Under the pieces are notes generated by a model, which worked only from the letters and a program-made list of their open reading frames with translations, did no database searches and was not told where the DNA came from. A DNA stretch of 64,000 nucleotides, from contig JAIESE010000036.1 of NCBI GenBank assembly GCA_019746225.1, forward strand, positions 11,519 to 75,518. The letters run 5' to 3'. The DNA is from Alphaproteobacteria bacterium. GTDB taxonomy: Bacteria; Pseudomonadota; Alphaproteobacteria; Paracaedibacterales; VGCI01. This document shows, piece after piece, positions 10,272 through 54,662 of the stretch (position 1 is its first letter; each line of letters opens with the position of its first letter). The translations under genes were made by a program, and so were the position numbers.

Positions 10272-13200
10272 ATGGAACATAAGGAACTTAGCGCTCCTCT
10301 GAATCTTTACGATGAAAGCTTAACCACAATAAGTGGCATAAAGTTCACCCATCGAGAGATGGACATTATTACCTTTATCTTTCATACAAGGGGCTCCAGC
10401 AAAATTGCCTCCCTTCTATCCATTTCTAACCGAACTGTTGAAACGCATACCGCAAATATCATGCGAAAAATGGATACGAACTCCAGAGAAGGCATTATAG
10501 ATTTTGTGAGCAAGCACGGGCACACCCTTCGTATTAAAAAACACTACCAAGCTCTGTTAGTCCAACTTAACTTCACCAAAAGACTGCAAGAAGTCTTTCG
10601 CCTTACTAAAAACAAGAATTTTACAAGCACCATCGTATTTAATGATACGACCCATGAGGAAAGGACTTTTCTGAACGCTCTTAAAGGTCATCTTGGTCTT
10701 TGCGGCATCAGTACAGTCTTAATTGAAAACAAGGATGAGAAGCCTATAGGAGATGTTAGCTCCCAAAATATTCTCGAGCCAAATGATCACATCCTTTATC
10801 TCGTCCCTCAAAAATTTTTAGAAGCCTATCAAAATAATTCCAAGAACCAAACAAAATCAATAGAAACGCTTAACCTAAATTCCGGGACTTTTACCTTCTT
10901 AACATGGGGAATGAAGCAACTCAGCCTGCCAAATGTGTTTTATGAAACAAACTCAGTCTGTTTTGAGGAACATGAAGACTATTTCTGCACCTTTTTTAAG
11001 CTCATCAAGAGAATGCTCCCGGATATAAATATCGATCCAATTATGTCCTCATTTCAAAAAGACCAGGAATTAACTAACGAAGTTTTGCAGCAAGATATTT
11101 TCGACCATGGTACCCTCTTAGAGAAAACGACACAGCAAATACCCACTCCTAAAAGAAGAATAGCAAAGCTCTTGTTTGTTGCGTCTACTCTTGTGGGCAC
11201 GGTATATCTTGGCCTTTCATTCCATAACATTAGTAAAGGCAGCTGGTTCAATAGGACGGACTCGAAAACATCGTCTTCAATCCGTTCTGATCTGCTTGTT
11301 CCTACCGACAATATATTCCTCAAACGTCCAAACGTGATCACGAAGATTGCAGAGGGTTTGAAAGAGAAACAAGGAATTCAAACGGTTGCAATTGTTGGGA
11401 TTGGAGGGGCAGGAAAAACAACCATCGCCCGACAATATGCCTTGAAGCAAAACGCCAATATCGTTTGGGAAATTAACGCAGAAACCAGAGAAAGCATCAA
11501 AGATTCTTTCGAACACCTAGCGTATGCTCTTTGCAAATCTGAAGAGGAGCGTAAAAGATTAATGGGGCTACAAGGTATCAAAAATAAAATTGAGCGGGAT
11601 GAGAAAATTCTTCTCCTTGTCAAAGAAAAATTAAAACAATATTCAAACTGGTTTCTCATTTATGACAACGTCAACAAGTTCACAAGCATCCAGCAGTATT
11701 TTCCTTGTGACTCAAAGGCATGGGGAGAAGGAAAGGTCATTATTACCACAACTGACAGCAATACGAAAAATAATAGTTTGATCAATAATTTCGTTTACAT
11801 AGGGGAGTTATCTCCAAATGAAAAACTGAATCTTTTTATGAACATCATGGGAAATGAAACAAGTCACACCTTCACTCCTTCCCAAGCAGAACAAGCCAGA
11901 ACTTTCTTGAATGATGTTCCACCCTTTCCGTTAGATGTATCAATTGCAGCTTATTATTTGAAATCAACCAACACGCCTTATGCTAAGTATCTCGAGAAAT
12001 TAAAGGAAGATAGTACGGATTTTGAAACGATCCAAGAAGATGTCGTCAAGGAAGCAAGCGGCTATACAAAGACACGATATAGCATCGTCTCTCTATCTTT
12101 GAAGCAACTCATTGAGACCCATCGAGATTTTGCCGATCTTTTAACATTGATTAGCCTCCTCGATTATCAAAATATCCCACGACCCCTCCTTTCGAGTTAT
12201 AAAAGTGACATTGTTGTTGACAACTTTATCTATAATTTAAAGAAGTATTCCTTGATAACCTCCGAGACTTCTGTAAATTCAATTTCTACGGTCTCTTTTC
12301 ACAGAGCAACGCAGGAAATTCTTCTCACCTATCTAACAAAGGCATTAGCCCTGTCAAATAAGAGCCCCCTTATAAATGACATCGCATTGTCTCTCGAGTC
12401 TTATATGGTTGAAACAATTGAAAACGAAGATTTTTCACGTATGAAACTCCTTGTTCCCCATTGCGAAGCCTTTCTTAACCGCGATCCATTACTCAATTCA
12501 AAAATGGAGGGTTCAATTGGGGGTGCCTTGGGTTGCATATATTACTATTTGCGCTACAATCTTCAAGCGAAGCAACATCTTGAAACAAGTTTGGCAAGTT
12601 TAAATCCGCATGAAATCAATAATCAGGATAAGATTGCCCGGATTTTAGCATATCTGGGGAGTTTTTATAGAGCCCAAGGCGATTATGAAAAGGCCAAAAC
12701 TTTTCTGGAACAAAGCCTTATTATTTATGAAAAAACACCAAACCATGTAAAAAGCACGAGAGCCCTAGGTTATTTGGGAGTCGTTTATCGAGATTTAGGC
12801 GACTACAAACGCGCCAAGCTTCTGTTAGAGCAGAGCCTAGAAATTCATGAGAAAAATGCACAAAATCAAATTGGCCATGCCTGGATTCAGGCGCATTTAG
12901 GAAACATCTACGCCATTTTGGGGGACTATAAAAAGGCGAATTTGTTACTTGAAAAAAGCCTCTTGATTTATAAAAAGCAAGCTGAAGACTATGTCGGTGT
13001 TGGATGGGTTTTGGGATATTTAAGCAATGTTTACCGAGGATTGGGGGACTTTCAGAAAGCACGAACTCTTGCAGAACAAAGCCTTACAATCACCAGAAGC
13101 AATTTTTCGGACAGCCACATTTATGTAGCCTCCCGTCTCGCGATTTTGGGTGCAGTCTATAATGAACTTGGAGATTATCAAAAAGCACGGAGTCTATTTG

Positions 13201-13589
13201 AAGAAAGCTTGCATATTTATGAGAAGGAATATGGTAAAAACCACAACGATACCGCTCGTGTCTTAAAATTGTTGGGGGAAACCTATTGCCTTGAGGGCGA
13301 CGTTGAAACCGCAGAAGAACTGCTCAACAAAGCCTTGCTCGTCTTCCAGCTCAAGAAATCTCCTGAAGCTTATAAATCACTCGAAAGTTTAGGTGATTTG
13401 TATTTGAAAAAAGGCAAGATAGCAACGGCAGAGGGGGACTTCAAGCATGCTCAGTCCTACAATATCCAAGCACTAAATTATTTTAATCAAGCCTTGGCAA
13501 TGACAAAAGAGTATTTCCAAGAAGATTCCCCTCATACATTAAGAATTAAAGTAAAACTGAATAGTATGCCGATGGCTCAGGTTGCATAG
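10272..13589 (+). CDS. STAND NTPase: N-terminal LuxR/GerE HTH, one TM helix, NB-ARC P-loop domain, C-terminal TPR array
   Basis: The HTH is FTHREMDIITFIFHTRGSSKIASLLSISNRTVETHTANIMRKM. The hydrophobic helix KRRIAKLLFVASTLVGTVYLGLSF lies at about nt 11164..11226. Walker A is VAIVGIGGAGKTTIARQYA (about 11396..11422) and Walker B-like is WFLIYDNVN. At least 7 TPR units of KLC type follow, each of the form LG..Y...GDY.KA....E.SL.I. Confidence 0.85.
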   Translation: MEHKELSAPLNLYDESLTTISGIKFTHREMDIITFIFHTRGSSKIASLLSISNRTVETHTANIMRKMDTNSREGIIDFVSKHGHTLRIKKHYQALLVQLNFTKRLQEVFRLTKNKNFTSTIVFNDTTHEERTFLNALKGHLGLCGISTVLIENKDEKPIGDVSSQNILEPNDHILYLVPQKFLEAYQNNSKNQTKSIETLNLNSGTFTFLTWGMKQLSLPNVFYETNSVCFEEHEDYFCTFFKLIKRMLPDINIDPIMSSFQKDQELTNEVLQQDIFDHGTLLEKTTQQIPTPKRRIAKLLFVASTLVGTVYLGLSFHNISKGSWFNRTDSKTSSSIRSDLLVPTDNIFLKRPNVITKIAEGLKEKQGIQTVAIVGIGGAGKTTIARQYALKQNANIVWEINAETRESIKDSFEHLAYALCKSEEERKRLMGLQGIKNKIERDEKILLLVKEKLKQYSNWFLIYDNVNKFTSIQQYFPCDSKAWGEGKVIITTTDSNTKNNSLINNFVYIGELSPNEKLNLFMNIMGNETSHTFTPSQAEQARTFLNDVPPFPLDVSIAAYYLKSTNTPYAKYLEKLKEDSTDFETIQEDVVKEASGYTKTRYSIVSLSLKQLIETHRDFADLLTLISLLDYQNIPRPLLSSYKSDIVVDNFIYNLKKYSLITSETSVNSISTVSFHRATQEILLTYLTKALALSNKSPLINDIALSLESYMVETIENEDFSRMKLLVPHCEAFLNRDPLLNSKMEGSIGGALGCIYYYLRYNLQAKQHLETSLASLNPHEINNQDKIARILAYLGSFYRAQGDYEKAKTFLEQSLIIYEKTPNHVKSTRALGYLGVVYRDLGDYKRAKLLLEQSLEIHEKNAQNQIGHAWIQAHLGNIYAILGDYKKANLLLEKSLLIYKKQAEDYVGVGWVLGYLSNVYRGLGDFQKARTLAEQSLTITRSNFSDSHIYVASRLAILGAVYNELGDYQKARSLFEESLHIYEKEYGKNHNDTARVLKLLGETYCLEGDVETAEELLNKALLVFQLKKSPEAYKSLESLGDLYLKKGKIATAEGDFKHAQSYNIQALNYFNQALAMTKEYFQEDSPHTLRIKVKLNSMPMAQVA

Positions 13590-18795: not shown

Positions 18796-18826
18796 AGAAA
18801 AAAAGCACCTTCCGAAGAAGGTGCTT
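18796..18826 (-). terminator. Rho-independent terminator after the 18850..19497 gene
   Basis: On the minus strand the sequence is AGCACCTTC-ttcg-GAAGGTGCT followed by TTTTTTT. The stem spans 18804..18825 and the A-run on the + strand spans 18797..18804. Confidence 0.8.
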
Positions 18827-18849
18827 TTATTAAGACCGAAAGACACTAA

Positions 18850-42998: not shown

Positions 42999-44110
42999 CT
43001 GCTTCGGCCAAATCGAATGGTGTTATGCAAGGCAACAGAAAAAATTAATCCTTGTCCAATCAGAAGGGTGAGCATCGCGGTTCCGCCATAAGAAATAAAA
43101 GGTAAAGGGACGCCCACTACAGGCAACATGCCCATAACCATAGCCATGTTTATGAAAACATACAAGAAAACTGTTGTTGTCATCCCCAAAGCAACCAGCC
43201 GACCAAATGAAGTGCGGCTGGCCATCGCAATCCGAAATCCATAGGCCAGAAGCGCTGCATAAAGGCCCAGCAGAATAATGCCCCCTATCAAGCCGAATTC
43301 TTCGCTAAACATTGTGAAGATGAAATCCGTTTGCTTTTCAGGCAGGAAATTGAGGTGACTTTGAGTTCCCTTCAGATAACCCTTGCCCGTCAGACCTCCA
43401 GACCCAAGCGCAATCTTAGATTGAGTTACATGATACCCCGAATTGGCAGGATCGCTTTCGGGATTGATAAAGGTCAAGATCCGCATTTTCTGATAATCAT
43501 AGAGTTGCATCCAAATCACCGGAGCTGCTGCCAGCATAGCGACTCCCGCCGTCAAAAATTTCCACCATTGGACACCCGCTGCAAAGAAAAGGGTACATCC
43601 ACATAAAATCAAAATGATCGCCGTGCCAAGATCCGGTTGACGCATCACAAGAAGGGTCGGCACGAATATAAGAGCGAGGGGCACCAGGAGCGTGGATATT
43701 TGTCGAATTTCATCGAGAGTTCTTTTATGAAAAAAGCGGGCAAGTGCCAGGACCAGAGCTATTTTCATGACCTCAGACGGCTGAAGCTGAAAAACATAGA
43801 GATCAATCCACCGTTGCCCCCCTTTCCCCACAAACCCTATGACTTCAACACCAACAAGCAAGATCAAGGTTACAAAGTAGATTGGGTAGGCATAGGCCAT
43901 CCATGTTCGGCTATCGGTCACACTCACAACAAACATCAGCGTAAAACCCATGGAAAAGCGGTATACTTGCTTCCAGGCCCAAGGTGTCATACTGCCATTG
44001 GCTGCGGAGTAAAGCATGAAAAACCCGACACTGGCAATGAGAATCAACAGCCCAATCACCCACGGGTTAATTTGGCGCAAGAGGGATACTTTAAGGGCAA
44101 TAGATGTCAT
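42995..44110 (-). CDS. rodA: SEDS-family peptidoglycan polymerase, RodA-like (FtsW/RodA/SpoVE family)
   Basis: The 371-aa product has about 10 TM helices. It carries QRWIDL..FQLQPSEVMKIALVLALA, DLGTAI, PE..TDFIF and LPFISYGGTAMLT. Length and N-terminus fit RodA better than FtsW. Confidence 0.75.
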   Translation of the reverse strand: MTSIALKVSLLRQINPWVIGLLILIASVGFFMLYSAANGSMTPWAWKQVYRFSMGFTLMFVVSVTDSRTWMAYAYPIYFVTLILLVGVEVIGFVGKGGQRWIDLYVFQLQPSEVMKIALVLALARFFHKRTLDEIRQISTLLVPLALIFVPTLLVMRQPDLGTAIILILCGCTLFFAAGVQWWKFLTAGVAMLAAAPVIWMQLYDYQKMRILTFINPESDPANSGYHVTQSKIALGSGGLTGKGYLKGTQSHLNFLPEKQTDFIFTMFSEEFGLIGGIILLGLYAALLAYGFRIAMASRTSFGRLVALGMTTTVFLYVFINMAMVMGMLPVVGVPLPFISYGGTAMLTLLIGQGLIFSVALHNTIRFGRSR

Positions 44111-44170
44111 AGAGTTACGGGTGCTTTATTTCTATTTGTTGTTTAGCATAGGGCGTTTAAATTAAAATCA

Positions 44171-44653
44171 TTACTTCTTCAGTTTTCGAAGCGCTTTTTG
44201 TTCCTTAAACCATGCATTTGAGGGCCTTGTAAACAAAAGAACACAGGCACCCAAGGACAAGAATATTGCGAAGATAGATAGAACAATCACCATTTTAGGT
44301 CCTTCCATCATTTCCATGAAGTTCAAGAGCCATGAAGGCACTCCAATGATCATGGTGATTAAATAAAGGATACGCGCCCAATTGCGACTCGAAGAAATTT
44401 TAAGAATTATCCAAAGTAGAATGGTTAAGGAAAGGCTCATTGTTAGAATAAGAAACATCTCCAGAGTCATCGGAAAATTGGGGGGTGGAAAGTCTGGAGA
44501 TTTAGTACGCGCCATAAGAATGACATGCCCCCAATTCAACACCATACCAAGAATGCTGACCGCGAAGTACGCCCAAAGAAGCTTTATAGCAAGAACAATT
44601 TCTTTAGGCTTTTCGGCAGTATGCGGTTGATTTGTCATGGATATTTTCCCCAT
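44171..44653 (-). CDS. Hypothetical 4-TM membrane protein
   Basis: The 160-aa product has four hydrophobic helices and a basic C-terminus. I recognise no family. It is transcribed divergently from tssB. Confidence 0.5.
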   Translation of the reverse strand: MGKISMTNQPHTAEKPKEIVLAIKLLWAYFAVSILGMVLNWGHVILMARTKSPDFPPPNFPMTLEMFLILTMSLSLTILLWIILKISSSRNWARILYLITMIIGVPSWLLNFMEMMEGPKMVIVLSIFAIFLSLGACVLLFTRPSNAWFKEQKALRKLKK

Positions 44654-44930
44654 AAATAGTAAATCTTAATATTACTTTACATCAGAATTCTTGATTTTGA
44701 CAAGCACGAGCTCGTCTCGGGCTTCACCCCTCTTGAATTTTTCATAGCAAGTCTACACATACTTAAAGTCCTCCGTACTCAAAATAATAAATTAATACTT
44801 TGTTAATAATCTCTAAATCAAAAAATCGATAAACTTTAACAAAATTAATAATTTTTTAAACAATTAAGCGTATTAATTAAAGTATAGCACGGAAATTCTC
44901 CGATATTGGAGAGAACAAGGAGGCTCAAAA

Positions 44931-45452
44931 ATGGTTGAAAGTTTACAACATAAACTGGATCGGGTAAGACCACCACGGGTTCAAATTACCTATGACGTTG
45001 AAATTGGTAACGCCATCGAGATGAAGGAATTGCCTTTTGTTATGGGAATTTTGGCTGACCTGTCGGGTATGCCAGCTGAAGCCTTACCGAAAGTTAAAGA
45101 CCGCAAATTCGCAGAGATTGACCGCGATAATATCAACGAAATTATGGCCTCAATTAATCCAAGGCTAGCGTTGCGCATCAACAATACTCTTGCCAATGAC
45201 GATACACAAATGAGCGTTGAGTTGTTCTTCAAAAATATTGAAGACTTCGAACCCCTCAATGTGGCCAAGCAAGTCCCTGCCCTTGAGAGACTTTATGAAG
45301 CGCGAACACGCCTAAAAGACTTACTGACCAAGCTGGATGGTAACGACACTTTGGGTGAAATGTTACAGGAAATTATTACCAATACGGAAAAGCGCGATGC
45401 TTTGAAAACAGAGTTGGGTATCACCGATACGCCACCTCCCGCTGCATCTTAA
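44931..45452 (+). CDS. tssB: T6SS contractile sheath small subunit TssB (VipA)
   Basis: RPPRVQITYDVEIGNAIEMKELPFVMGILADLSG...DRKFAEIDRDNINEIMASINPRL is canonical TssB. An AAGGAGG SD precedes it. Confidence 0.92.
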   Translation: MVESLQHKLDRVRPPRVQITYDVEIGNAIEMKELPFVMGILADLSGMPAEALPKVKDRKFAEIDRDNINEIMASINPRLALRINNTLANDDTQMSVELFFKNIEDFEPLNVAKQVPALERLYEARTRLKDLLTKLDGNDTLGEMLQEIITNTEKRDALKTELGITDTPPPAAS

Positions 45453-45469
45453 TTTAAGGAGATACGATC

Positions 45470-46942
45470 ATGGCTGACGATAAAACAGACGCACCAGCAG
45501 CAGCAGAAGAAACCGCCCTCGATGTATTAATGTCGAAAGGTAAATTGGCTCGCGATGATTCGCAAAAACCATTTGCACGTGATTTGGTAACAGAATTTGT
45601 CAACCAAGTTCTCGAGCAAGGAACCGTTGTGAGCAACGATACGGTTGCCTTCATCAATCAACGCATTCTTGAAATTGATGATTTGATTGGGAATCAATTA
45701 AACGAAATCATGCATGACCCCGCTTTCCAGAAACTGGAAGGGTCTTGGAGAGGCTTAAACTACCTGGTGATGAATACCGAAACAGCTGTGCATTTGAAAC
45801 TTCGCTTAATGAACATTACCAAGAAAGAACTTCTGGACGATTTGGAAAAGGCCGTTGAATTTGACCAAAGCCAAATGTTTAAGAAAATCTATGAAGAAGA
45901 ATATGGCACGTTTGGTGGCCATCCCTACTCTTGTTTGGTTGGTGACTTTGAATTCACCCGCCATCCTCAAGATATGGAACTTCTTCAAAAGATGTCTCAA
46001 GTGGCAGCCGCCGCGCATGCACCATTCTTGACAGCGGCCGATCCAAAACTTTTTGATTTGGACAAATTTGAACACTTGGGCGTTCCAAGAGATCTTTCTA
46101 AGATTTTTGAAAGTCTTGAAATGATTAAGTGGAACTCTTTCCGCGAAACAGAAGACTCCCGTTATGTGGCCATGTTGTTGCCGCGGGTTTTGATGCGTCT
46201 TCCTTATGGAGCAAACACCCTTCCCGCAGAAGGATTGAACTTTGAAGAAGATGTGGCTGGTGCCGATACATCAAAATTCTGCTGGACAAATCCGGCTTAC
46301 ATTTTGGGTCAACGTATAACGAACGCTTTCTCACTTTATAAGTGGACAGCAGCGATACGTGGTGTTGAAGGCGGTGGCATCGTGGAAGGCCTTCCAGCCT
46401 TTACGTTCAAAACAACCGACGGCGATATCGCCTTGAAGTGCCCAACAGAAACAGCCATTACCGATCGTCGTGAAAAAGAGTTGAGTGATCTTGGCTTCAT
46501 CTCTCTGTGCCATTGCAAAGGAACAGACTATGCGGCGTTCTTTGGCGGACAAACAACACAAAAGCCAAAGATCTACAACTTAGATGATGCCAATGCCAAT
46601 GCGAACCTTTCCGCCCGTCTGCCGTATATTTTGGCAGCCTCTCGTTTTGCGCACTACATCAAAGTAATTATGCGCGACAAGATCGGTAGCTTCTTAACAC
46701 GGGACAACGTTGAAAAGTATCTCAACACCTGGATTGCAAGTTATGTGGTTATCAATGATAACGCCTCTCAACCAGTTAAGGCGAAATTCCCCTTAAGAGA
46801 AGCACGGATCGATGTCTACGAAATTCCAGGAAAACCAGGATCTTATCGGTCTGTCATTTACTTGAGACCGCATTTCCAAATGGAAGAACTATCGGCCTCG
46901 ATCAGAATGGTCGCAACCTTACCACCACCGGCGGCTCAATAA
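45470..46942 (+). CDS. tssC: T6SS contractile sheath large subunit TssC (VipB)
   Basis: The 490-aa product has DPAFQKLEGSWRGLNYLV, YSCLVGDFEF, AAAAHAPFLTAA, RYVAMLLPRVLMRLPYG and GFISL motifs. Confidence 0.93.
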   Translation: MADDKTDAPAAAEETALDVLMSKGKLARDDSQKPFARDLVTEFVNQVLEQGTVVSNDTVAFINQRILEIDDLIGNQLNEIMHDPAFQKLEGSWRGLNYLVMNTETAVHLKLRLMNITKKELLDDLEKAVEFDQSQMFKKIYEEEYGTFGGHPYSCLVGDFEFTRHPQDMELLQKMSQVAAAAHAPFLTAADPKLFDLDKFEHLGVPRDLSKIFESLEMIKWNSFRETEDSRYVAMLLPRVLMRLPYGANTLPAEGLNFEEDVAGADTSKFCWTNPAYILGQRITNAFSLYKWTAAIRGVEGGGIVEGLPAFTFKTTDGDIALKCPTETAITDRREKELSDLGFISLCHCKGTDYAAFFGGQTTQKPKIYNLDDANANANLSARLPYILAASRFAHYIKVIMRDKIGSFLTRDNVEKYLNTWIASYVVINDNASQPVKAKFPLREARIDVYEIPGKPGSYRSVIYLRPHFQMEELSASIRMVATLPPPAAQ

Positions 46943-46971
46943 AGCACGCGGTAATTTGAAAGGAGTTAGAG

Positions 46972-47565
46972 ATGGCAGTTAACAAAGAACAAAGCATACA
47001 GGCCGTAAGTCAAAGATATAAGGACGAAGCAGGCAACCCGCCCTTAGGCACTGTTACATCGAGCTTCTTTATCTCAATGGATGATATTTTTGCCACCTCA
47101 AACGTTGGCTCAGGGTCAAGCGCGAACGCTGCCGGATTAGCAAATGCTGTCCATCTACTCTATTATACGAGCGTTGAAGAACGCCCGTCGATTGGGACGA
47201 TGACCAGTGACTTTCAAGCCAGTGCGACCCTTATTCATTCCTTGGTTGAATTGCATATTCTAACTGACTCCGCCATGCCGACTTTGCGTCAGAACATGCG
47301 TTCAAACAAACCAGTTGCCGAAATGAAAATTACGCGCGTCGGCCATCTTGGTGAGGGAGCCGACAACACAGAAATGTATTCCAGCACGTTTACGAATAAC
47401 TTCATTGAATCCATCGAAGAAATTCCAGACAAACTCATTGTTAAAGTTCGTGTCAATACACGCTCTGACACAGCTGCAACAACAGACTTTACCGGTACTC
47501 AAGCAACCACTTCAGGAAGTGCAGCTTCTGGTTGGGATTATACACAAAACGCCCCTATGGCTTAA
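46972..47565 (+). CDS. hcp: Divergent Hcp-like T6SS tube protein (copy 1)
   Basis: It sits directly after tssC, the usual Hcp position. The C-terminus SGWDYTQN resembles the Hcp G-W-(D/N)-x-x-x-N end. The middle region (MPTLRQNM..NKPV.EMKITRVGH) aligns loosely with Hcp1 TPNLMMAC..GKHY..AKLTIRKAG. At 197 aa it carries an extra N-terminal segment of about 25 aa. Confidence 0.55.
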   Translation: MAVNKEQSIQAVSQRYKDEAGNPPLGTVTSSFFISMDDIFATSNVGSGSSANAAGLANAVHLLYYTSVEERPSIGTMTSDFQASATLIHSLVELHILTDSAMPTLRQNMRSNKPVAEMKITRVGHLGEGADNTEMYSSTFTNNFIESIEEIPDKLIVKVRVNTRSDTAATTDFTGTQATTSGSAASGWDYTQNAPMA

Positions 47566-47608
47566 GGTGGATAGTCTTTCCCTGTCTTGTTAAATAAAGA
47601 CCCAATTC

Positions 47609-47647
47609 GACCCCTCATTTGCGTAAGTAAATCAGGGGTCTTTTTTT
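47609..47647 (+). terminator. Rho-independent terminator after hcp copy 1
   Basis: The stem joins GACCCCT (47609..47615) and AGGGGTC (47634..47640), followed by TTTTTTT (47641..47647). Confidence 0.8.
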
Positions 47648-47878
47648 AACCTGTCTCCTTTAATAAATCCCCCAACACTTTCGACGGGTAAGCTTTGCTA
47701 CTCCTATTTAGCTAATTTTAATAAAATTAGCTATACACCAGTTGCCAAACACCAGGTATGCACGTTAAGCTATTATTAATGAATTGTTAACCATTTGTTA
47801 AGGATGACCTCCTTTGGGTCACCAAGGTGACTGTTTCCCTTAGGAAATACGCTGATTTAAGGTAGAGGAATTTTTTAG

Positions 47879-48439
47879 ATGTCCGACGCAAAAGCGCTTC
47901 AAACTTCCCCAACAGAAAACCAATTTTCGCCATCTGGAAACCCTCCTATCGGGACAGTCACATCAAGCTTTTTTGTTTCAATCGACAAAGTCTTCGCCCA
48001 CACCTCTGTTGAGGTTGAAACAGTTAAAGAATCTGTTCAGCTGCTCTGGTTTACGAGCATTGAAGAACGTCCTTCCATTGGCAATATGACCAGTGATTTT
48101 CAGGCCAGTGCGACTCTTATTCATTCTTTGCTTGAGATGCATGTTTTGACAGATTCAGCTATGCCCATATTAAGAGAGAACATGAGGAACAATACCCCCA
48201 TTAAAAAAATTATTATTTCCCGTGTAGGCCACTTGGGAAAAGATAAACACAATAAATTATTATATTCCTCCACGTTTGAAAATTGCTTTCTTGAAGCTGT
48301 TGAAGAATTTCCGGATAAGCTCATCATTAAAGCCCGTATCACCAAGCGCACAGACAAAGCAGCTGCAACTGATTATACAAATACGCAAAAAGGAAACACT
48401 GTTTCTGGTTGGGATTATGCGAAGAACCAGGCTGTATAA
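47879..48439 (+). CDS. hcp: Divergent Hcp-like T6SS tube protein (copy 2, paralogue of 46972..47565)
   Basis: It is collinear with copy 1. Compare NPPIGTVTSSFFVSIDKVFA with NPPLGTVTSSFFISMDDIFA, and EERPSIGNMTSDFQASATLIHSLLEMHVLTDSAMP with EERPSIGTMTSDFQASATLIHSLVELHILTDSAMP. It ends in SGWDYAKNQAV. Confidence 0.55.
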   Translation: MSDAKALQTSPTENQFSPSGNPPIGTVTSSFFVSIDKVFAHTSVEVETVKESVQLLWFTSIEERPSIGNMTSDFQASATLIHSLLEMHVLTDSAMPILRENMRNNTPIKKIIISRVGHLGKDKHNKLLYSSTFENCFLEAVEEFPDKLIIKARITKRTDKAAATDYTNTQKGNTVSGWDYAKNQAV

Positions 48440-48502
48440 TAGGTCTACTGCAAATTAAAGTACTGTCTTCGTCATTACTGAAAAAGCATCAAGGAGTATA
48501 CT

Positions 48503-49003
48503 ATGGCCGGAGCTTTAAAGGATGCCACAGCCGAAACAAAAATGATAATCGGAGCTCCTGCTCCGTTATTCGATCGCTTAATCGATGAAGATCCAGAAAC
48601 ATCGACCGAATATCCTGTAAAGAAGAATCTAAACCGCTTTGAGCTGATTCAATCCATTGAGCATGAAGTTTCACGTATCCTCAATACCCGGGCCACTGTT
48701 AAACGTGCTGAATATGAAGATTTTTCAGAAGACCCCTTAAACTTCGGACTCCCAGAAATGTTTGGCCTTGGGGATTTTTCCCAATATGATGCCACAAATG
48801 AACAAGAATGGCCCCGCATCGCTGAACTTTGTGAACAAGCCATCAAGCGCTATGAGCCTCGGATAAAGAATGTCACCGCAAACGTAACCGCATTTGACAA
48901 AAAACAACAATCCTTGAGCATTACCATCCACGCCGACTTTGCCATGAAAGAATTTCAAGGAGAGCTCACCTTCCCCACTGCTTTCGCCATGGGGGGAAGA
49001 TAG
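48503..49003 (+). CDS. tssE: T6SS baseplate subunit TssE (gp25/GPW family)
   Basis: APAPLFDRLIDEDPE, LIQSIEHEVSRILNTR, NFGLPE and ICEQAIKRYEPRIKNV match the TssE pattern (LLDRL.D..P / L..S...DL..LLNTR / YGLPD / I..AI..FEPRL). Confidence 0.85.
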   Translation: MAGALKDATAETKMIIGAPAPLFDRLIDEDPETSTEYPVKKNLNRFELIQSIEHEVSRILNTRATVKRAEYEDFSEDPLNFGLPEMFGLGDFSQYDATNEQEWPRIAELCEQAIKRYEPRIKNVTANVTAFDKKQQSLSITIHADFAMKEFQGELTFPTAFAMGGR

Positions 49004-49030
49004 GCGTTGAGAGGGAGGTGCTTTTTCCCT

Positions 49031-49480
49031 CTACAAGGAATTGTTCTTAATAAACGCTACAAAATCTTTGACGTCATTGAACTGTTTATAAACGCTTGCA
49101 AACCGTACATAAGCAACAGAATCTAGATTGAGAAGCGCATCCATAGCCATCTCGCCAATATCCGTTGTTGGAATTTCCGTTTCTCCGGACGTTTCCAATT
49201 GTCGTACAATACTGGAAACGACACGTTCGAGCCGCTCTGGATCAATCTCCCGTTTGTGCAAAGCTGTTTCAATAGATTGCGCCAGCTTGTCCCTGTCAAA
49301 TGGAACCCGAAGACCGCTTTTCTTCAAAACCATTAAATCGCGCAACTGAACCCGTTCAAACGTCGTAAAGCGTGAACCACATTCCATACAAAACCGCCGC
49401 CTTCGGATGGTGGCGTTGTCTTCTGTGGTTCGAGAGTCTTTAACCCCTGTATCCGGGTGGTTGCAAAAGGGACATCGCAC
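49031..49480 (-). CDS. nrdR: Transcriptional repressor NrdR
   Basis: With a GTG start at 49480 the product reads (M)[41 protein letters not shown], giving a zinc ribbon plus an ATP-cone. The upstream extension in the track ORF overlaps glyA and is unlikely. Confidence 0.9.
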
Positions 49481-49484
49481 GCTT

Positions 49485-50747
49485 CTAGGCTCCCTTCTGT
49501 TCAGAATAAATAGGGAAGCGATGACATAAAGAAATTGCTTCTTCTCGAACTTGTGCAATGGTCGCAAGCGAGGGATCATGAATCACTTTTGAAATCATAT
49601 CCGCCACTTGGACAAACTCTGGCTTCCCAAAGCCGCGCGAAGTACAAGCAGGACTTCCCAGACGAATGCCTGATGTGATCGTGGGAGAAACAGTATCAAA
49701 AGGAATGCTGTTTTTATTGCACGTAATGTTGGCTTGTCCAAGAGCCACTTCGGTGTCTTTTCCCGTCACGCCTTTCGCCCGCAAATCCACGAGAATAAGG
49801 TGAGAATCTGTTCCGCCCGATACCAAAGAAAAACCATCCTCAACCAATCGTTGGCCCATCGCTTTGGCATTGGCAATGACATTAGCTGCATAGGTTTTAA
49901 ACTCAGGCTTCAACGCTTCCCCAAATGCCACCGCTTTTGCCGCAATGACATGCATGAGCGGGCCGCCTTGCAAACCTGGGAATACAGCAGAATTTATTTT
50001 CTTCGCCAATGCCTCATCGTTCGTTAAAATAATGCCGCCACGGGGCCCCCGTAAGGTTTTGTGGGTTGTGGACGTAACCACATGAGCATGAGGGAAAGGG
50101 CTTGGGAACACGCCACCTGCAACAAGACCTGCGAAATGAGCCATATCCACAAAAAGATAGGCGCCCACCTCATCGGCAATTTGGCGAAATCGAGCAAAAT
50201 CGATGGTTCGTGGATAAGCCGACCCCCCCGCAATAATCAATTTCGGCTGAGTTTCCTTGGCAATTCTGGCAACATCATCATAGTCAATGAGGTGCGTTTC
50301 TGGATGAACATCATAGGAGACAGCTTTGAACCATTTGCCCGACAAATTGACCGATGATCCGTGCGTCAAATGTCCTCCAGCTGCCAAAGACATCCCTAAA
50401 ACCGTGTCACCCGGCTTTACGAGGGCCAGAAAAATCGCTTGATTGGCTTGGCTCCCGGAATGGGGTTGGACATTGGCAAATGCACATCCAAAGAGCGATT
50501 TTACACGATCAATGGCCAAATCCTCCGCAATATCAACGAATTCACACCCCCCATAATACCGGCGACCCGAATAGCCTTCCGCATACTTGTTGGTCATCAC
50601 AGACCCTTGCGCTTCCAAAACAGCTCGAGAAACAATATTTTCGGACGCAATCAATTCAATTTGATCTTGTTGTCGATGCAACTCGAGGCTCATAGCTTCT
50701 GCAATTTGAGGGTCAGTTTTCAAGAGAGCTTCATGAGAAATAGCCAC
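49485..50747 (-). CDS. glyA: Serine hydroxymethyltransferase
   Basis: The 420-aa product has [29 protein letters not shown] and [16 protein letters not shown], the PLP-lysine motif. Confidence 0.96.
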
Positions 50748-53187: not shown

Positions 53188-53412
53188 ATGAAAAAAATTG
53201 AAGATATTAAAGGTCTCGGGATTTGGGTCCGTCAAGCGCGAAAAGAGCAAGGTCTAACACAAGAACAACTTGCAGCTACTTCCAGTGTAGGCATCCGTTT
53301 TATAAGGGAACTTGAGCAAGGAAAAGAAACCTGTCATATCGGGAAGGTCATGCAAGTCTTGCAAATGCTTGGGATTGAGATCTTTGCAAGGAAAAGAGGA
53401 GAGGTAAACTAA
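53188..53412 (+). CDS. hipB: XRE-family HTH antitoxin HipB
   Basis: MKKIEDIKGLGIWVRQARKEQGLTQEQLAATSSVGIRFIRELEQGK is a Cro/C1 HTH. Its stop overlaps the hipA ATG (TAATG). Confidence 0.8.
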   Translation: MKKIEDIKGLGIWVRQARKEQGLTQEQLAATSSVGIRFIRELEQGKETCHIGKVMQVLQMLGIEIFARKRGEVN

Positions 53413-54662
53413 TGACCCGTATTTTAGACGTCTATTTACACGAGCAACTGGTTGGAAAATTGATACAGGACAATTCAGGACGTTTGCAATTTCAGTATGA
53501 AGAAAATTACGTCTCCGATAAGAATTCAATGCCCATTTCTTTATCTATGCCCGTGCGATCAGAGCAATACGAAGAAATAAAAGTTCGTGCTTTTTTCTCC
53601 GGTCTTCTGCCCGATGATATCGCCCGTCACCGATTGGCCCGCTACTTAGGTGTTTCAGAGAAGAATCCATTCTCACTACTCGAAGCAATTGGAGGAGAGT
53701 GCGCAGGGGCTCTTGCTTTATATCCTGAAGGGGAACTGCCTCCCCCTCCTAAAAATGGAGATATTGAAAAACTTGACAACAAACAATTGAAGGAAATCCT
53801 AAATCTCCTAAAACGACGCCCCTTAATGGCAGGAGAAGACAATGTCAGGCTCTCTCTTGCAGGTGCTCAAGATAAGCTTGCCATCAGTTTAGTAGATGAT
53901 TGTATTGCTTTGGTGAGGGGAACGACCCCTACAACTCATATCCTAAAACCTTTGATAGAAGAGGTAAAAGACAGCGTATACAATGAATTATTCTGCTTAT
54001 CACTTGCCGCGCTACTAGAAATAGAAACACCACGCGCAGAAATCCGCTGGCTAGACGATACTCCCTACTTTCTTGTAGAACGTTATGATCGTCAAATTGA
54101 TTCGAACAACAAGATTGTACGGATACACCAAGAGGATTTCTGTCAAGTTTTGGGAGTTCTGCCAGAACTCAAATATGAACGTGAAGGAGGTCCAAGCGTT
54201 ACGCAAAGTTTAGAACTGCTGCAGAATCACTCTTTGCAACCTGCTGCTGATCGACTCGCGTTTATCCAAAGGTTGATTTTCAACTACCTCATTGGAAACT
54301 CAGATGCTCACGGTAAAAATAATTCTATTCTCTTTACAAATCGACTACCAAGATTAGCACCAGCTTATGATTTGTTATCAACTATTATATATCCAAATCT
54401 CTCAAACAAGATGGCAATGAAAATAGGAGGCAAATATGACCCTGAGGTTGTCCTTCTTCGCCATTGGCAACGAATTGTTCCTGATACAACCGTCGCAAAG
54501 AGAGCATTGAACAAAGACTTAATGAAGATTTCAAAAGACTGTCTAGAACAAGCACACACTCTCAAAGCAGCACTAAAAGAACAAGGGACTTACTCAATAA
54601 TATTTGATGATATCTGTCAGGTAATTAAAAAGAGATCTGATCACATCCTGAGGCAACTTTAA
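53412..54662 (+). CDS. hipA: Type II toxin HipA family serine/threonine kinase
   Basis: The 416-aa product starts with L.VYL....VG.L........F.Y (HipA N-terminal). It also has SLAGAQDKLA, and IGNSDAHGKNNSILF is the catalytic loop. Confidence 0.88.
   Translation: MTRILDVYLHEQLVGKLIQDNSGRLQFQYEENYVSDKNSMPISLSMPVRSEQYEEIKVRAFFSGLLPDDIARHRLARYLGVSEKNPFSLLEAIGGECAGALALYPEGELPPPPKNGDIEKLDNKQLKEILNLLKRRPLMAGEDNVRLSLAGAQDKLAISLVDDCIALVRGTTPTTHILKPLIEEVKDSVYNELFCLSLAALLEIETPRAEIRWLDDTPYFLVERYDRQIDSNNKIVRIHQEDFCQVLGVLPELKYEREGGPSVTQSLELLQNHSLQPAADRLAFIQRLIFNYLIGNSDAHGKNNSILFTNRLPRLAPAYDLLSTIIYPNLSNKMAMKIGGKYDPEVVLLRHWQRIVPDTTVAKRALNKDLMKISKDCLEQAHTLKAALKEQGTYSIIFDDICQVIKKRSDHILRQL

What the first reader, a model, noticed from the sequence alone, without database searches (positions are those of the whole stretch)
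46972..48439. Two tandem, strongly divergent Hcp-like paralogues separated by an intrinsic terminator and a 313-bp spacer
Seen in sequence: the ORFs of 197 aa and 186 aa are clear paralogues with long identical stretches such as EERPSIG.MTSDFQASATLIHSL and SGWDY. They differ in a Gly/Ser/Ala-rich insertion present only in copy 1 (SNVGSGSSANAAGLANA). Similarity to canonical Hcp is limited mainly to the C-terminal G-W-D-x-x-x-N motif and a loose central alignment. Both copies carry an N-terminal extension of about 25 aa. A good terminator (47609..47647) follows copy 1, so copy 2 plus tssE probably form a separate transcription unit. Inference: the two copies may form a specialised or heteromeric tube, or one copy may act as an effector-chaperone Hcp. 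The N-terminal extension would project at the ring surface.
Basis: partly seen in the sequence, partly recalled or inferred. Interest (0 to 1): 0.55.

Follow-up and report, generated by a model that had tools for sequence, protein, structure and literature searches.

The report
Two diverged T6SS tube (Hcp) genes
Both ORFs are real but highly divergent copies of the type VI secretion inner-tube protein Hcp, sitting between the sheath genes and tssE in a protist-symbiont-type alphaproteobacterium; the identity is solid and useful for annotation, but duplicated Hcp genes are an ordinary feature of these systems.

Summary
ORFs 46972..47565 (197 aa) and 47879..48439 (186 aa) are paralogues (58% identity, E 3e-79). 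They lie between tssB-tssC and tssE, with a strong hairpin plus T7 tract (47609..47647) after copy 1. Pfam's Hcp model scores below threshold and NCBIfam finds nothing. However, AlphaFold2 models of both copies match only Hcp structures (E to 4e-11, TM to 0.85), and a profile including distant relatives hits nine Hcp chains in the PDB (best E 2e-8). Both carry a real N-terminal extension of about 28 aa. The locus rodA | tssB-tssC-hcp(n)-tssE | nrdR-glyA is syntenic in Candidatus Finniella-like (Holosporales) MAGs. Hcp number there varies from one to three, and in one MAG the pair is split between two loci. The Gly/Ser loop is the family's majority state, so copy 2 has a shortened loop rather than copy 1 an insertion. 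Both copies keep the family's conserved core. In all eight multi-copy lineages the tssC-proximal copy is the more acidic. Most likely copy 1 is the bulk tube subunit made with the sheath, and copy 2 is a minor, sub-functionalised Hcp made with tssE. Published work already lists [tssB-tssC-hcp] in Holosporales. This is a new member of a known kind, of modest interest.

The parts
44836..44864 (+). candidate sigma-70-like promoter upstream of tssB (TTAACA-17-AACAAT)
   Evidence: A 9/12 consensus match. It overlaps an AT-rich motif (AAACTTTTA-N9-TAAAATTTT) that recurs upstream of tssB in L008, L010 and L012. Weak evidence only.
44931..45452 (+). tssB (small sheath subunit)
   Evidence: PF05591 E 1.8e-56 and TIGR03358 E 8e-56.
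45470..46942 (+). tssC (large sheath subunit)
   Evidence: PF05943 plus PF18945, and TIGR03355 E 3e-207. It is 93-95% identical across the related loci.
46972..47565 (+). hcp copy 1 (197 aa, net charge -8), a divergent Hcp/TssD
   Evidence: - Model and fold: AF2 model pLDDT 69, pTM 0.63. Foldseek top hits are all Hcp (1y12 E 5e-10, TM up to 0.82).
- Pfam: Hcp model scores 17.7 bits, below the 23.5 cut-off.
- Public record: identical to NCBI MBX9805410.1 / K2Y18_06630, 'hypothetical protein'.
- Translation start: AGGAG lies 6 nt before the ATG.
47609..47647 (+). intrinsic-terminator-like hairpin plus T7 tract, 44 nt after the copy 1 stop codon
   Evidence: dG -19.2 kcal/mol, z -4.2, 0 of 200 shuffles fold as well. 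A comparable hairpin with a T-rich tail lies at the same offset in L013. A strong hairpin without a T-run lies there in L014. L012 and L008 have none.
47709..47733 (.). perfect 25-bp palindrome TAGCTAATTTTA-A-TAAAATTAGCTA in the spacer (candidate operator)
   Evidence: It is one of only two perfect inverted repeats with arms of at least 12 nt in the 64-kb window. 29 of 30 block shuffles have none. Its sequence is not found in the related loci, although L012 and L003 carry other long AT-rich palindromes upstream of their tssE-proximal hcp. Its function is inferred.
47879..48439 (+). hcp copy 2 (186 aa, net charge -1), a divergent Hcp/TssD
   Evidence: - Model and fold: AF2 model pLDDT 72, pTM 0.67. 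Foldseek top hits are all Hcp (4w64 E 3.7e-11, TM up to 0.85).
- Conservation: matches 59 of 59 family columns that are at least 90% conserved.
- Public record: identical to K2Y18_06635, 'hypothetical protein'.
48503..49003 (+). tssE (gp25-like baseplate subunit)
   Evidence: PF04965 E 8e-14 and TIGR03357 E 2.6e-23.

Best explanation
Identity (shown). Both ORFs are functional inner-tube proteins (Hcp/TssD). They belong to the dispersed, canonical-sheath type VI secretion system typical of Holosporales-type protist symbionts. The family is a divergent Hcp lineage with an N-terminal tail of about 28 aa and a long beta1-beta2 loop.

Origin (shown). The pair comes from hcp duplication, which recurs in this clade.

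Expression (inferred). Copy 1 is transcribed with tssB-tssC, and most transcripts stop at the hairpin/T7 terminator. The abundant sheath and bulk tube subunits are therefore made together. Copy 2 and tssE are expressed at a separate, probably lower, level. This would come from read-through and/or a promoter in the 313-bp spacer, possibly controlled through the 25-bp palindrome.

Role of copy 2 (inferred). Copy 2 keeps the family core and the ring-contact elements, so it can enter the tube. It differs in the N-terminal tail, the beta1-beta2 loop and surface charge (-1 against -8). It probably acts as a minor Hcp variant with altered cargo or stacking properties.
For: Fold and homology:
- Fold matches for both copies.
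- Profile hits to nine Hcp chains in the PDB, at E from 2e-8 to 1.4e-4.
- 21 of 64 members of the wider family match Pfam Hcp at E <= 0.01.
- Gene context tssB-tssC-hcp-hcp-tssE.

Conservation of the locus:
- The same locus is syntenic in eight related lineages, with 1-3 hcp copies.

Both copies under constraint:
- Intact ORFs with Shine-Dalgarno sequences.
- dN/dS 0.06-0.25, though dS is saturated.
- Copy 2 matches 59/59 and copy 1 56/59 of the columns that are at least 90% conserved.

Where the copies differ:
- Differences concentrate in the N-terminal tail (11% identity) and the beta1-beta2 loop (18%).
- The beta2-beta3 loop (94%) and the helix (85%) are nearly identical.

Systematic asymmetry:
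- In 8 of 8 multi-copy lineages the tssC-proximal copy is more acidic than the tssE-side copy.
- Copy 1 is 86% identical to its L014 counterpart, copy 2 only 62%.

Transcription:
- Terminator, with analogues in L013 and L014.
- Spacers between tandem copies are always long (208-369 bp; the one exception is the 80 bp between L008 copies 1 and 2), against 20-100 bp at the tssC-hcp and hcp-tssE junctions.
- hcpB-tssE stands alone in MAG JAJONN01 and in L003.

Precedents:
- Bacteroidales minor Hcps form heterohexamers and bind effectors (PMC13213661).
- Holosporales T6SS genes are organised as [tssB-tssC-hcp] among four or more loci (PMC8163844).
Against: - Pfam gathering score is not reached (17.7 and 14.6 bits against 23.5), and there is no NCBIfam hit.
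- The models are of moderate confidence (pLDDT 69 and 72).
- No consensus promoter lies on the + strand in the spacer, and the spacer is poorly conserved between loci.
- The hairpin is absent in L012 and L008.
- No alignment column separates tssC-proximal from tssE-proximal copies across lineages, and deep nodes of the paralogue tree are unsupported. A clade-wide fixed division of labour is therefore not shown.
- L009 manages with a single hcp, so a second copy is not essential.
- Ring formation, secretion, expression levels and cargo binding were not testable.
- The other T6SS genes are outside the window.
Confidence: 0.6

Rival explanations
1. The two copies are functionally equivalent tube subunits. 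The duplication only raises Hcp supply, since Hcp is expelled at each firing. The sequence and charge differences are neutral drift on loops that tolerate change.
For: - Copy number varies freely, from 1 to 3, among close relatives.
- Copies of one genome cluster together in L012 (85% bootstrap) and in L013, suggesting repeated duplication or gene conversion.
- No position-specific diagnostic column exists.
- Both copies keep the conserved core.
Against: - 42-45% divergence is large for dosage duplicates.
- The charge asymmetry has the same sign in 8 of 8 lineages, including those whose copies cluster together.
- Rates are unequal: 86% against 62% identity to the L014 counterparts.
- A terminator-like element separates the copies.
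Confidence: 0.2
2. Copy 2 is a baseplate-proximal adaptor or 'tube initiator' ring made with TssE. It would seed tube polymerisation on VgrG, like the second tube protein of phage tails and extracellular contractile injection systems (gp48/gp54, Afp5/Pvc5-type; from general knowledge).
For: - Gene order sheath-tube-second tube-gp25 homologue.
- Copy 2 is paired with tssE even when the locus is split.
- The tssE-side copy is consistently less acidic.
Against: - L009 has one hcp only.
- In the two Finniella loci (L010, L011) the second copy lies after tssE, and L008 has three copies.
- Copy 2 is no more similar to tssE-side copies of other lineages than to tssC-side ones.
- Canonical T6SS needs no initiator (general knowledge).
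Confidence: 0.08
3. tssB through tssE is a single operon. The hairpin is an RNA-stabilising or processing element rather than a terminator, so the two copies are co-expressed.
For: - No promoter consensus in the spacer.
- L014 has a strong hairpin without a T-tract at the same place, and L012 and L008 have none.
Against: - In the window the hairpin is followed directly by seven T, the classical intrinsic terminator form.
- L013 has the same arrangement.
- The spacer carries a statistically unusual palindrome typical of an operator.
- hcpB-tssE exists as an autonomous locus in a relative.
Confidence: 0.25
4. The ORFs are not Hcp homologues. They would belong to another beta-barrel family that merely sits in the locus.
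For: Pfam is sub-threshold and NCBIfam finds nothing. NCBI annotates both as hypothetical proteins.
Against: - The top 50 structural hits listed for each model all contain an Hcp structure.
- Profile search gives E 2e-8 to solved Hcps over the full domain.
- The C-terminal GWDxxxN motif is shared.
- No other family matches.
Confidence: 0.02

Closest known systems
Canonical Hcp/TssD (Pfam PF05638; e.g. P. aeruginosa Hcp1, PDB 1Y12; A. baumannii Hcp1, 4W64; Salmonella Hcp2, 5XEU)
   Same: - Same predicted fold (TM 0.74-0.85 normalised to the target).
- Same order of strands and single helix.
- C-terminal G-W-D/N-x-x-x-N motif.
- Position next to the sheath genes.
   Different: - Only 8-19% identity in the structural alignments, and below Pfam's gathering score.
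- An N-terminal extension of about 28 aa with a conserved NPPxGTVTSSFF segment.
- A beta1-beta2 loop of about 22 aa.
Holosporales '[tssB-tssC-hcp]' module and the 'putative Hcp-like superfamily protein' CPBP_00987 of Candidatus Bodocaedibacter vickermanii (Midha et al. 2021, PMC8163844)
   Same: The T6SS core genes are dispersed over several loci, with hcp directly after tssB-tssC. The host lineage is alphaproteobacterial symbionts of protists. The window shows exactly this module, with no other T6SS gene in 64 kb.
   Different: The window has two hcp copies plus tssE in the module. I could not compare sequences directly with CPBP_00987. That paper does not describe duplication, the N-terminal extension or the charge asymmetry.
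Minor Hcps of Bacteroidales T6SS (San-Miguel et al. 2026, PMC13213661)
   Same: Several diverged Hcp paralogues in one T6SS locus. There, one major homohexameric Hcp forms the tube, and minor Hcps form heterohexamers that recognise effectors.
   Different: [quoted passage not shown] Here no effector gene adjoins copy 2 in the window, and heteromer formation is untested.
Duplicated hcp genes of Vibrio cholerae (hcp1/hcp2) and multiple Hcps of Pseudomonas aeruginosa (general knowledge, not tested here)
   Same: More than one hcp gene serves one organism's T6SS.
   Different: The V. cholerae copies are essentially identical dosage duplicates at separate loci. The Pseudomonas Hcps belong to separate T6SS clusters. 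Here two 58%-identical copies sit in tandem within one module.

Membership tests
Hcp/TssD (T6SS inner tube protein) | Hcp/gp19-like beta-barrel fold with one flanking helix | tested here: met
   AF2 models of both copies (pLDDT 69 and 72). The top 50 Foldseek PDB hits listed for each all contain an Hcp structure. Best E values are 5e-10 and 3.7e-11, with TM up to 0.82 and 0.85. These are predicted, not experimental, structures.
Hcp/TssD (T6SS inner tube protein) | Score above the curated threshold of the family models (Pfam PF05638; NCBIfam Hcp models) | tested here: not met
   PF05638 scores 17.7 bits (copy 1) and 14.6 bits (copy 2) against a gathering score of 23.5. No NCBIfam family appears at E <= 1.
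Hcp/TssD (T6SS inner tube protein) | Statistically significant sequence homology to experimentally solved Hcps | tested here: met
   A profile of the two window proteins plus 62 relatives hits 5xeu_A at E 2.1e-8, plus eight further Hcp chains at E <= 1.4e-4, over nearly the whole domain. A profile of close relatives alone gives only E 0.04.
Hcp/TssD (T6SS inner tube protein) | Encoded with other T6SS core genes | tested here: met
   The genes sit directly between tssB-tssC and tssE. The same holds in the related loci that carry this module (L001-L014).
Hcp/TssD (T6SS inner tube protein) | Forms hexameric rings that stack into a tube inside the sheath | not testable with these tools
   Only single-chain prediction was available. 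It needs multimer modelling, electron microscopy or crystallography.
Hcp/TssD (T6SS inner tube protein) | Secreted in a T6SS-dependent manner | not testable with these tools
   Uncultured MAG with no expression or secretome data.
Minor / effector-adaptor Hcp (Bacteroidales type) | Forms heteromeric rings with another Hcp and binds a cognate effector encoded nearby | not tested
   No effector-like gene adjoins copy 2 in the window. Interaction was not testable.
Intrinsic (Rho-independent) terminator | GC-rich stem-loop followed directly by a U-tract, downstream of a stop codon | tested here: met
   47609..47640, with a 7-bp GC-rich base plus a 6-bp upper stem, dG -19.2 kcal/mol, z -4.2, then T7, 44 nt after the stop codon. 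Actual termination was not measured.

The most novel reading that the evidence does not exclude
Holosporales-type symbionts may build a two-component T6SS tube. An acidic bulk Hcp would be made with the sheath. A near-neutral second Hcp would be made with the baseplate protein TssE and act as a dedicated adaptor or initiator ring, or as a cargo-specific ring, for delivery into eukaryotic host cytoplasm. The family-specific N-terminal tail would act as an inter-ring staple. That would be a tube architecture not described for canonical-sheath T6SS.
Probability: 0.1. Interest if true: 0.6.

Novelty: new member of a known kind. Interest (0 to 1): 0.3.

Why it matters
- Current uncertainty. A 2025 review of the Holosporales calls their T6SS 'probably non-standard' because genes for main components, including the inner tube, appear to be missing (PMC11909080). 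NCBI annotates both window proteins as hypothetical.
- What this adds. The gene(s) after tssC fold as Hcp and connect to solved Hcps by profile search. This removes part of that apparent gap. It also gives an annotation handle for the whole family: an N-terminal tail of about 28 aa, NPPxGTVTSSFF, the central EERPSIG.MTSDFQASATL block and the C-terminal GWDY.
- A further contrast. Across these symbionts the sheath is almost invariant (93-95%) while the tube protein is the fastest-evolving gene of the locus (47-86%) and is repeatedly duplicated. This suggests that the expelled, host-exposed part of the machine is where adaptation occurs. That is a testable idea, but not a new kind of system.

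Tried and rejected
- Sigma-54 promoter (TGGCAC-N5-TTGC): no match in the spacer or upstream of tssB, and the window-wide count equals chance.
- Sigma-70 scan: no + strand hit inside the spacer. Manual inspection found nothing better.
- Rfam at permissive threshold over 44000..50000: nothing.
- Small ORFs in the spacer: nothing credible.
- Alignment of the regions upstream of the tssE-side hcp from eight loci: 40% mean identity, with only pairwise-shared motifs (L008/L003 and L010/L011).
- Shared regulatory repeat between the tssB upstream region and the spacer: only weak AT-rich matches.
- Search for residues diagnostic of tssC-proximal versus tssE-proximal copies: zero columns.
- Bootstrapped NJ tree to date the duplication: deep nodes have 0-36% support. 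Only window_1+L014_1 (100), L012_1+L012_2 (85) and the post-tssE Finniella pair (100) are solid.
It shows only that there is no sign of decay.
- Single-sequence PDB search: only E 0.26 to an Hcp.
- Other T6SS genes in the window: none among 36 ORFs scanned in total, 30 of them outside the module.
- Horizontal-transfer signature: the module's GC is like its flanks. Only hcp2 is slightly lower (GC 0.41, GC3 0.385, against 0.44-0.48).
Full report
**1. The observation**

The two ORFs exist as described: 46972..47565 (197 aa) and 47879..48439 (186 aa), both on the + strand.
- BLASTP gives 58% identity over 174 residues, E 3e-79.
- Upstream lie tssB (44931..45452) and tssC (45470..46942). Downstream lies tssE (48503..49003). 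All three exceed their curated Pfam and NCBIfam thresholds.
- The 313-bp spacer begins with a hairpin at 47609..47640 (dG -19.2 kcal/mol, z -4.2, none of 200 shuffles as stable). Seven T follow directly.
- Both proteins are already in public databases as 'hypothetical protein' K2Y18_06630 and K2Y18_06635 of an alphaproteobacterial MAG. JGI labels copy 1 as Hcp.

**2. Are they Hcp?**

Direct sequence evidence is weak.
- Pfam PF05638 scores 17.7 and 14.6 bits against a gathering score of 23.5.
- NCBIfam finds nothing.
- A single-sequence PDB search gives E 0.26 to an Hcp.
- A profile of 49 close relatives gives E 0.04.

Three stronger lines settle the question.
- AlphaFold2 models built on the family alignment (pLDDT 69 and 72; pTM 0.63 and 0.67) were searched against the PDB with Foldseek. 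Every one of the top 50 hits listed for each copy contains an Hcp structure. Best E values are 5e-10 and 3.7e-11, and TM normalised to the target reaches 0.82 and 0.85.
- An exhaustive HMMER search of 1.8 billion representative proteins found 69 relatives, mostly about 190 aa long. Of the 64 aligned members, 21 match Pfam Hcp at E <= 0.01.
- A profile of that wider alignment hits nine solved Hcp chains at E between 2.1e-8 and 1.4e-4, over nearly the whole domain.

**3. Family-specific features**

- In that profile alignment, position 38 corresponds to residue 6 of Salmonella Hcp2. The first strand of the models starts at residue 30 in copy 1 and 29 in copy 2.
- The N-terminal extension of about 28 aa is therefore real. 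Residues 1-19 are variable, while 20-36 (NPPxGTVTSSFF) are conserved in all 49 close homologues.
- The Gly/Ser-rich beta1-beta2 loop (SNVGxGxS...) is the family's majority state. Many tssE-side copies in other genomes have it too. Copy 2 of the window has a loop 7 residues shorter with a different sequence. It is an indel hotspot, not an insertion unique to copy 1.

**4. Context and evolution**

No other T6SS gene occurs in the 64-kb window.
- The five-gene module sits between rodA-truB-pnp on the left and nrdR-glyA on the right.
- This fits the published description of Holosporales T6SS genes as scattered over four or more loci, one being [tssB-tssC-hcp] (PMC8163844).

Related loci come from MAGs named Candidatus Finniella, from one labelled Candidatus Finniella inopinata, and from unclassified Alphaproteobacteria MAGs. 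They show the same flanks and module but a variable hcp content:

| Arrangement | Where seen |
|---|---|
| One copy | L009 |
| Two in tandem | window, L012, L013, L014, a 47-kb JGI contig |
| Three in tandem | L008 |
| hcp-tssE-hcp | L010, L011 |
| Split into tssBC-hcpA and hcpB-tssE-nrdR-glyA on two contigs of one MAG | L006 and L007 (JAJONN01 bin.42); equally L001 and L003 |

The history of the duplication could not be resolved.
- A bootstrapped NJ tree resolves only shallow nodes.
- No alignment column separates tssC-side from tssE-side copies.
- The data cannot distinguish one old duplication with partial homogenisation from repeated duplications.

**5. State of the two copies**

- Both have Shine-Dalgarno sequences and intact frames.
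- dN/dS is 0.25 between the copies and 0.06-0.12 against counterparts. dS is saturated, so this shows only that neither copy is decaying.
- Copy 2 matches all 59 family columns that are at least 90% conserved. Copy 1 deviates at three: W64Y, C143N and F151I.
- Identity between the copies is 11% in the N-terminal tail and 18% in the beta1-beta2 loop. It is 94% in the beta2-beta3 loop and 85% around the helix.
- From general knowledge of Hcp structures, those last two elements make the ring contacts and the outward, sheath-facing surface. Their near-identity is compatible with both copies entering the same tube. This is inference.

Two asymmetries point to some division of labour.
- Copy 1 is 86% identical to its counterpart in the nearest relative (L014), while copy 2 is only 62% identical.
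- In all eight multi-copy lineages the tssC-proximal copy is more acidic than the tssE-side copy. The window values are -8 and -1. This holds even where the copies of one genome cluster together.

**6. Transcription**

For a separate unit:
- The window hairpin has the classical terminator form.
- L013 has a similar hairpin with a T-rich tail at the same offset after its first hcp. L014 has a very stable hairpin without a T-run.
- Spacers between tandem copies are long, 208-369 bp, apart from the 80 bp between L008 copies 1 and 2. The tssC-hcp and hcp-tssE junctions are 20-100 bp.
- The window spacer holds a perfect 25-bp palindrome (47709..47733). It is one of only two such repeats in 64 kb, and 29 of 30 shuffles contain none. 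This is a plausible operator.

Against:
- L012 and L008 have no such hairpin.
- No sigma-70 or sigma-54 consensus lies on the + strand of the spacer.
- The spacer is not conserved between loci.

The existence of an autonomous hcpB-tssE locus in a relative shows that this half can stand alone. My reading is partial termination after copy 1 plus separate, probably regulated, expression of copy 2 and tssE. This is inferred, not shown.

**7. Comparison with what is known**

- These are members of the Hcp superfamily by fold, by profile homology and by context. They fail the curated Pfam and NCBIfam thresholds.
- Ring formation and secretion could not be tested.
- Diverged Hcp paralogues in one locus have a precedent in Bacteroidales. 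There, minor Hcps form heterohexamers that recognise effectors (PMC13213661).
- An Hcp-like gene after tssBC in Holosporales is already published (PMC8163844).
- A 2025 review nevertheless still lists the tube gene as apparently missing in this group (PMC11909080).

**8. Verdict**

The 'insertion' and the proposed special roles are corrected or left open. This is a new, divergent member of a known kind. It is useful for annotating symbiont T6SS and suggests host-facing diversification of the tube, but it is not surprising to a specialist. Interest 0.3.

Noticed in passing
window 44931..49003 compared with L001, L003, L008-L014: The sheath protein TssC is 93-95% identical across these lineages. 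That is more conserved than PNPase (82-91%), RodA (74-81%) or GlyA (77-81%). The adjacent Hcp proteins are only 47-86% identical, which makes the tube protein the fastest-evolving gene of the locus.
   Followed up: partly
window 46972..48439; L008, L010, L011, L012, L013, L014, L001+L003: In all eight lineages with two or more hcp copies, the tssC-proximal copy has the more negative net charge. Examples are -8 against -1 in the window, and -15, -11 and -1 in L008. The lineages are not phylogenetically independent, so no formal significance is claimed.
   Followed up: partly
window 47709..47733: A perfect 25-bp palindrome, TAGCTAATTTTA-A-TAAAATTAGCTA, lies in the hcp1-hcp2 spacer. It is one of two perfect inverted repeats with arms of at least 12 nt in the window. 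There is no exact copy in the related loci, but L012 and L003 have other long AT-rich palindromes at the equivalent place.
   Followed up: partly
L001 10656..12140 (also L002): In the lineage with the split locus, hcpA is followed by a 494-aa ORF with no Pfam domain. It has an N-terminal hydrophobic segment that looks like a signal peptide (by eye, not tested) and long low-complexity Q/E/K/R-rich stretches. It stands where the window has hcp2. This could be a secreted protein or an effector candidate.
   Followed up: no
L015 6001..6594 and L016 1786..2379: Distant Hcp-like relatives (about 24% identity; their cluster includes a protein labelled Holosporales bacterium) are orphan genes. They lie directly upstream of a sigma-54 activator and flhA, not next to tssBC.
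   Followed up: no
window 44831..44860; L008 7121..7147; L010 6677..6703; L012 3856..3884: A conserved AT-rich motif, AAACTTTTA-N9-TAAAATTTT, lies upstream of tssB in several lineages. The window has a variant that overlaps the only promoter-like match upstream of tssB.
   Followed up: no
window 47879..48439: hcp2 has lower GC (0.408; GC3 0.385) than hcp1 and all neighbouring genes (GC 0.44-0.48; GC3 0.43-0.50).
   Followed up: no
window 18801..18828: The other perfect hairpin with 12-nt arms in the window is AAAAGCACCTTC-CGAA-GAAGGTGCTTTT. It has A- and T-tracts on either side and looks like a bidirectional terminator between two minus-strand ORFs.
   Followed up: no
window 10272..13589: A 1105-aa protein combines an N-terminal LuxR-type HTH (GerE), an NB-ARC NTPase domain and a long TPR array. 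This is a STAND-type regulator architecture.
   Followed up: no
window 53412..54662: A full-length HipA-like toxin kinase (Couple_hipA plus HipA_C domains) lies near the T6SS module. Toxin-antitoxin systems are noted as prominent in a related symbiont (PMC8163844).
   Followed up: no
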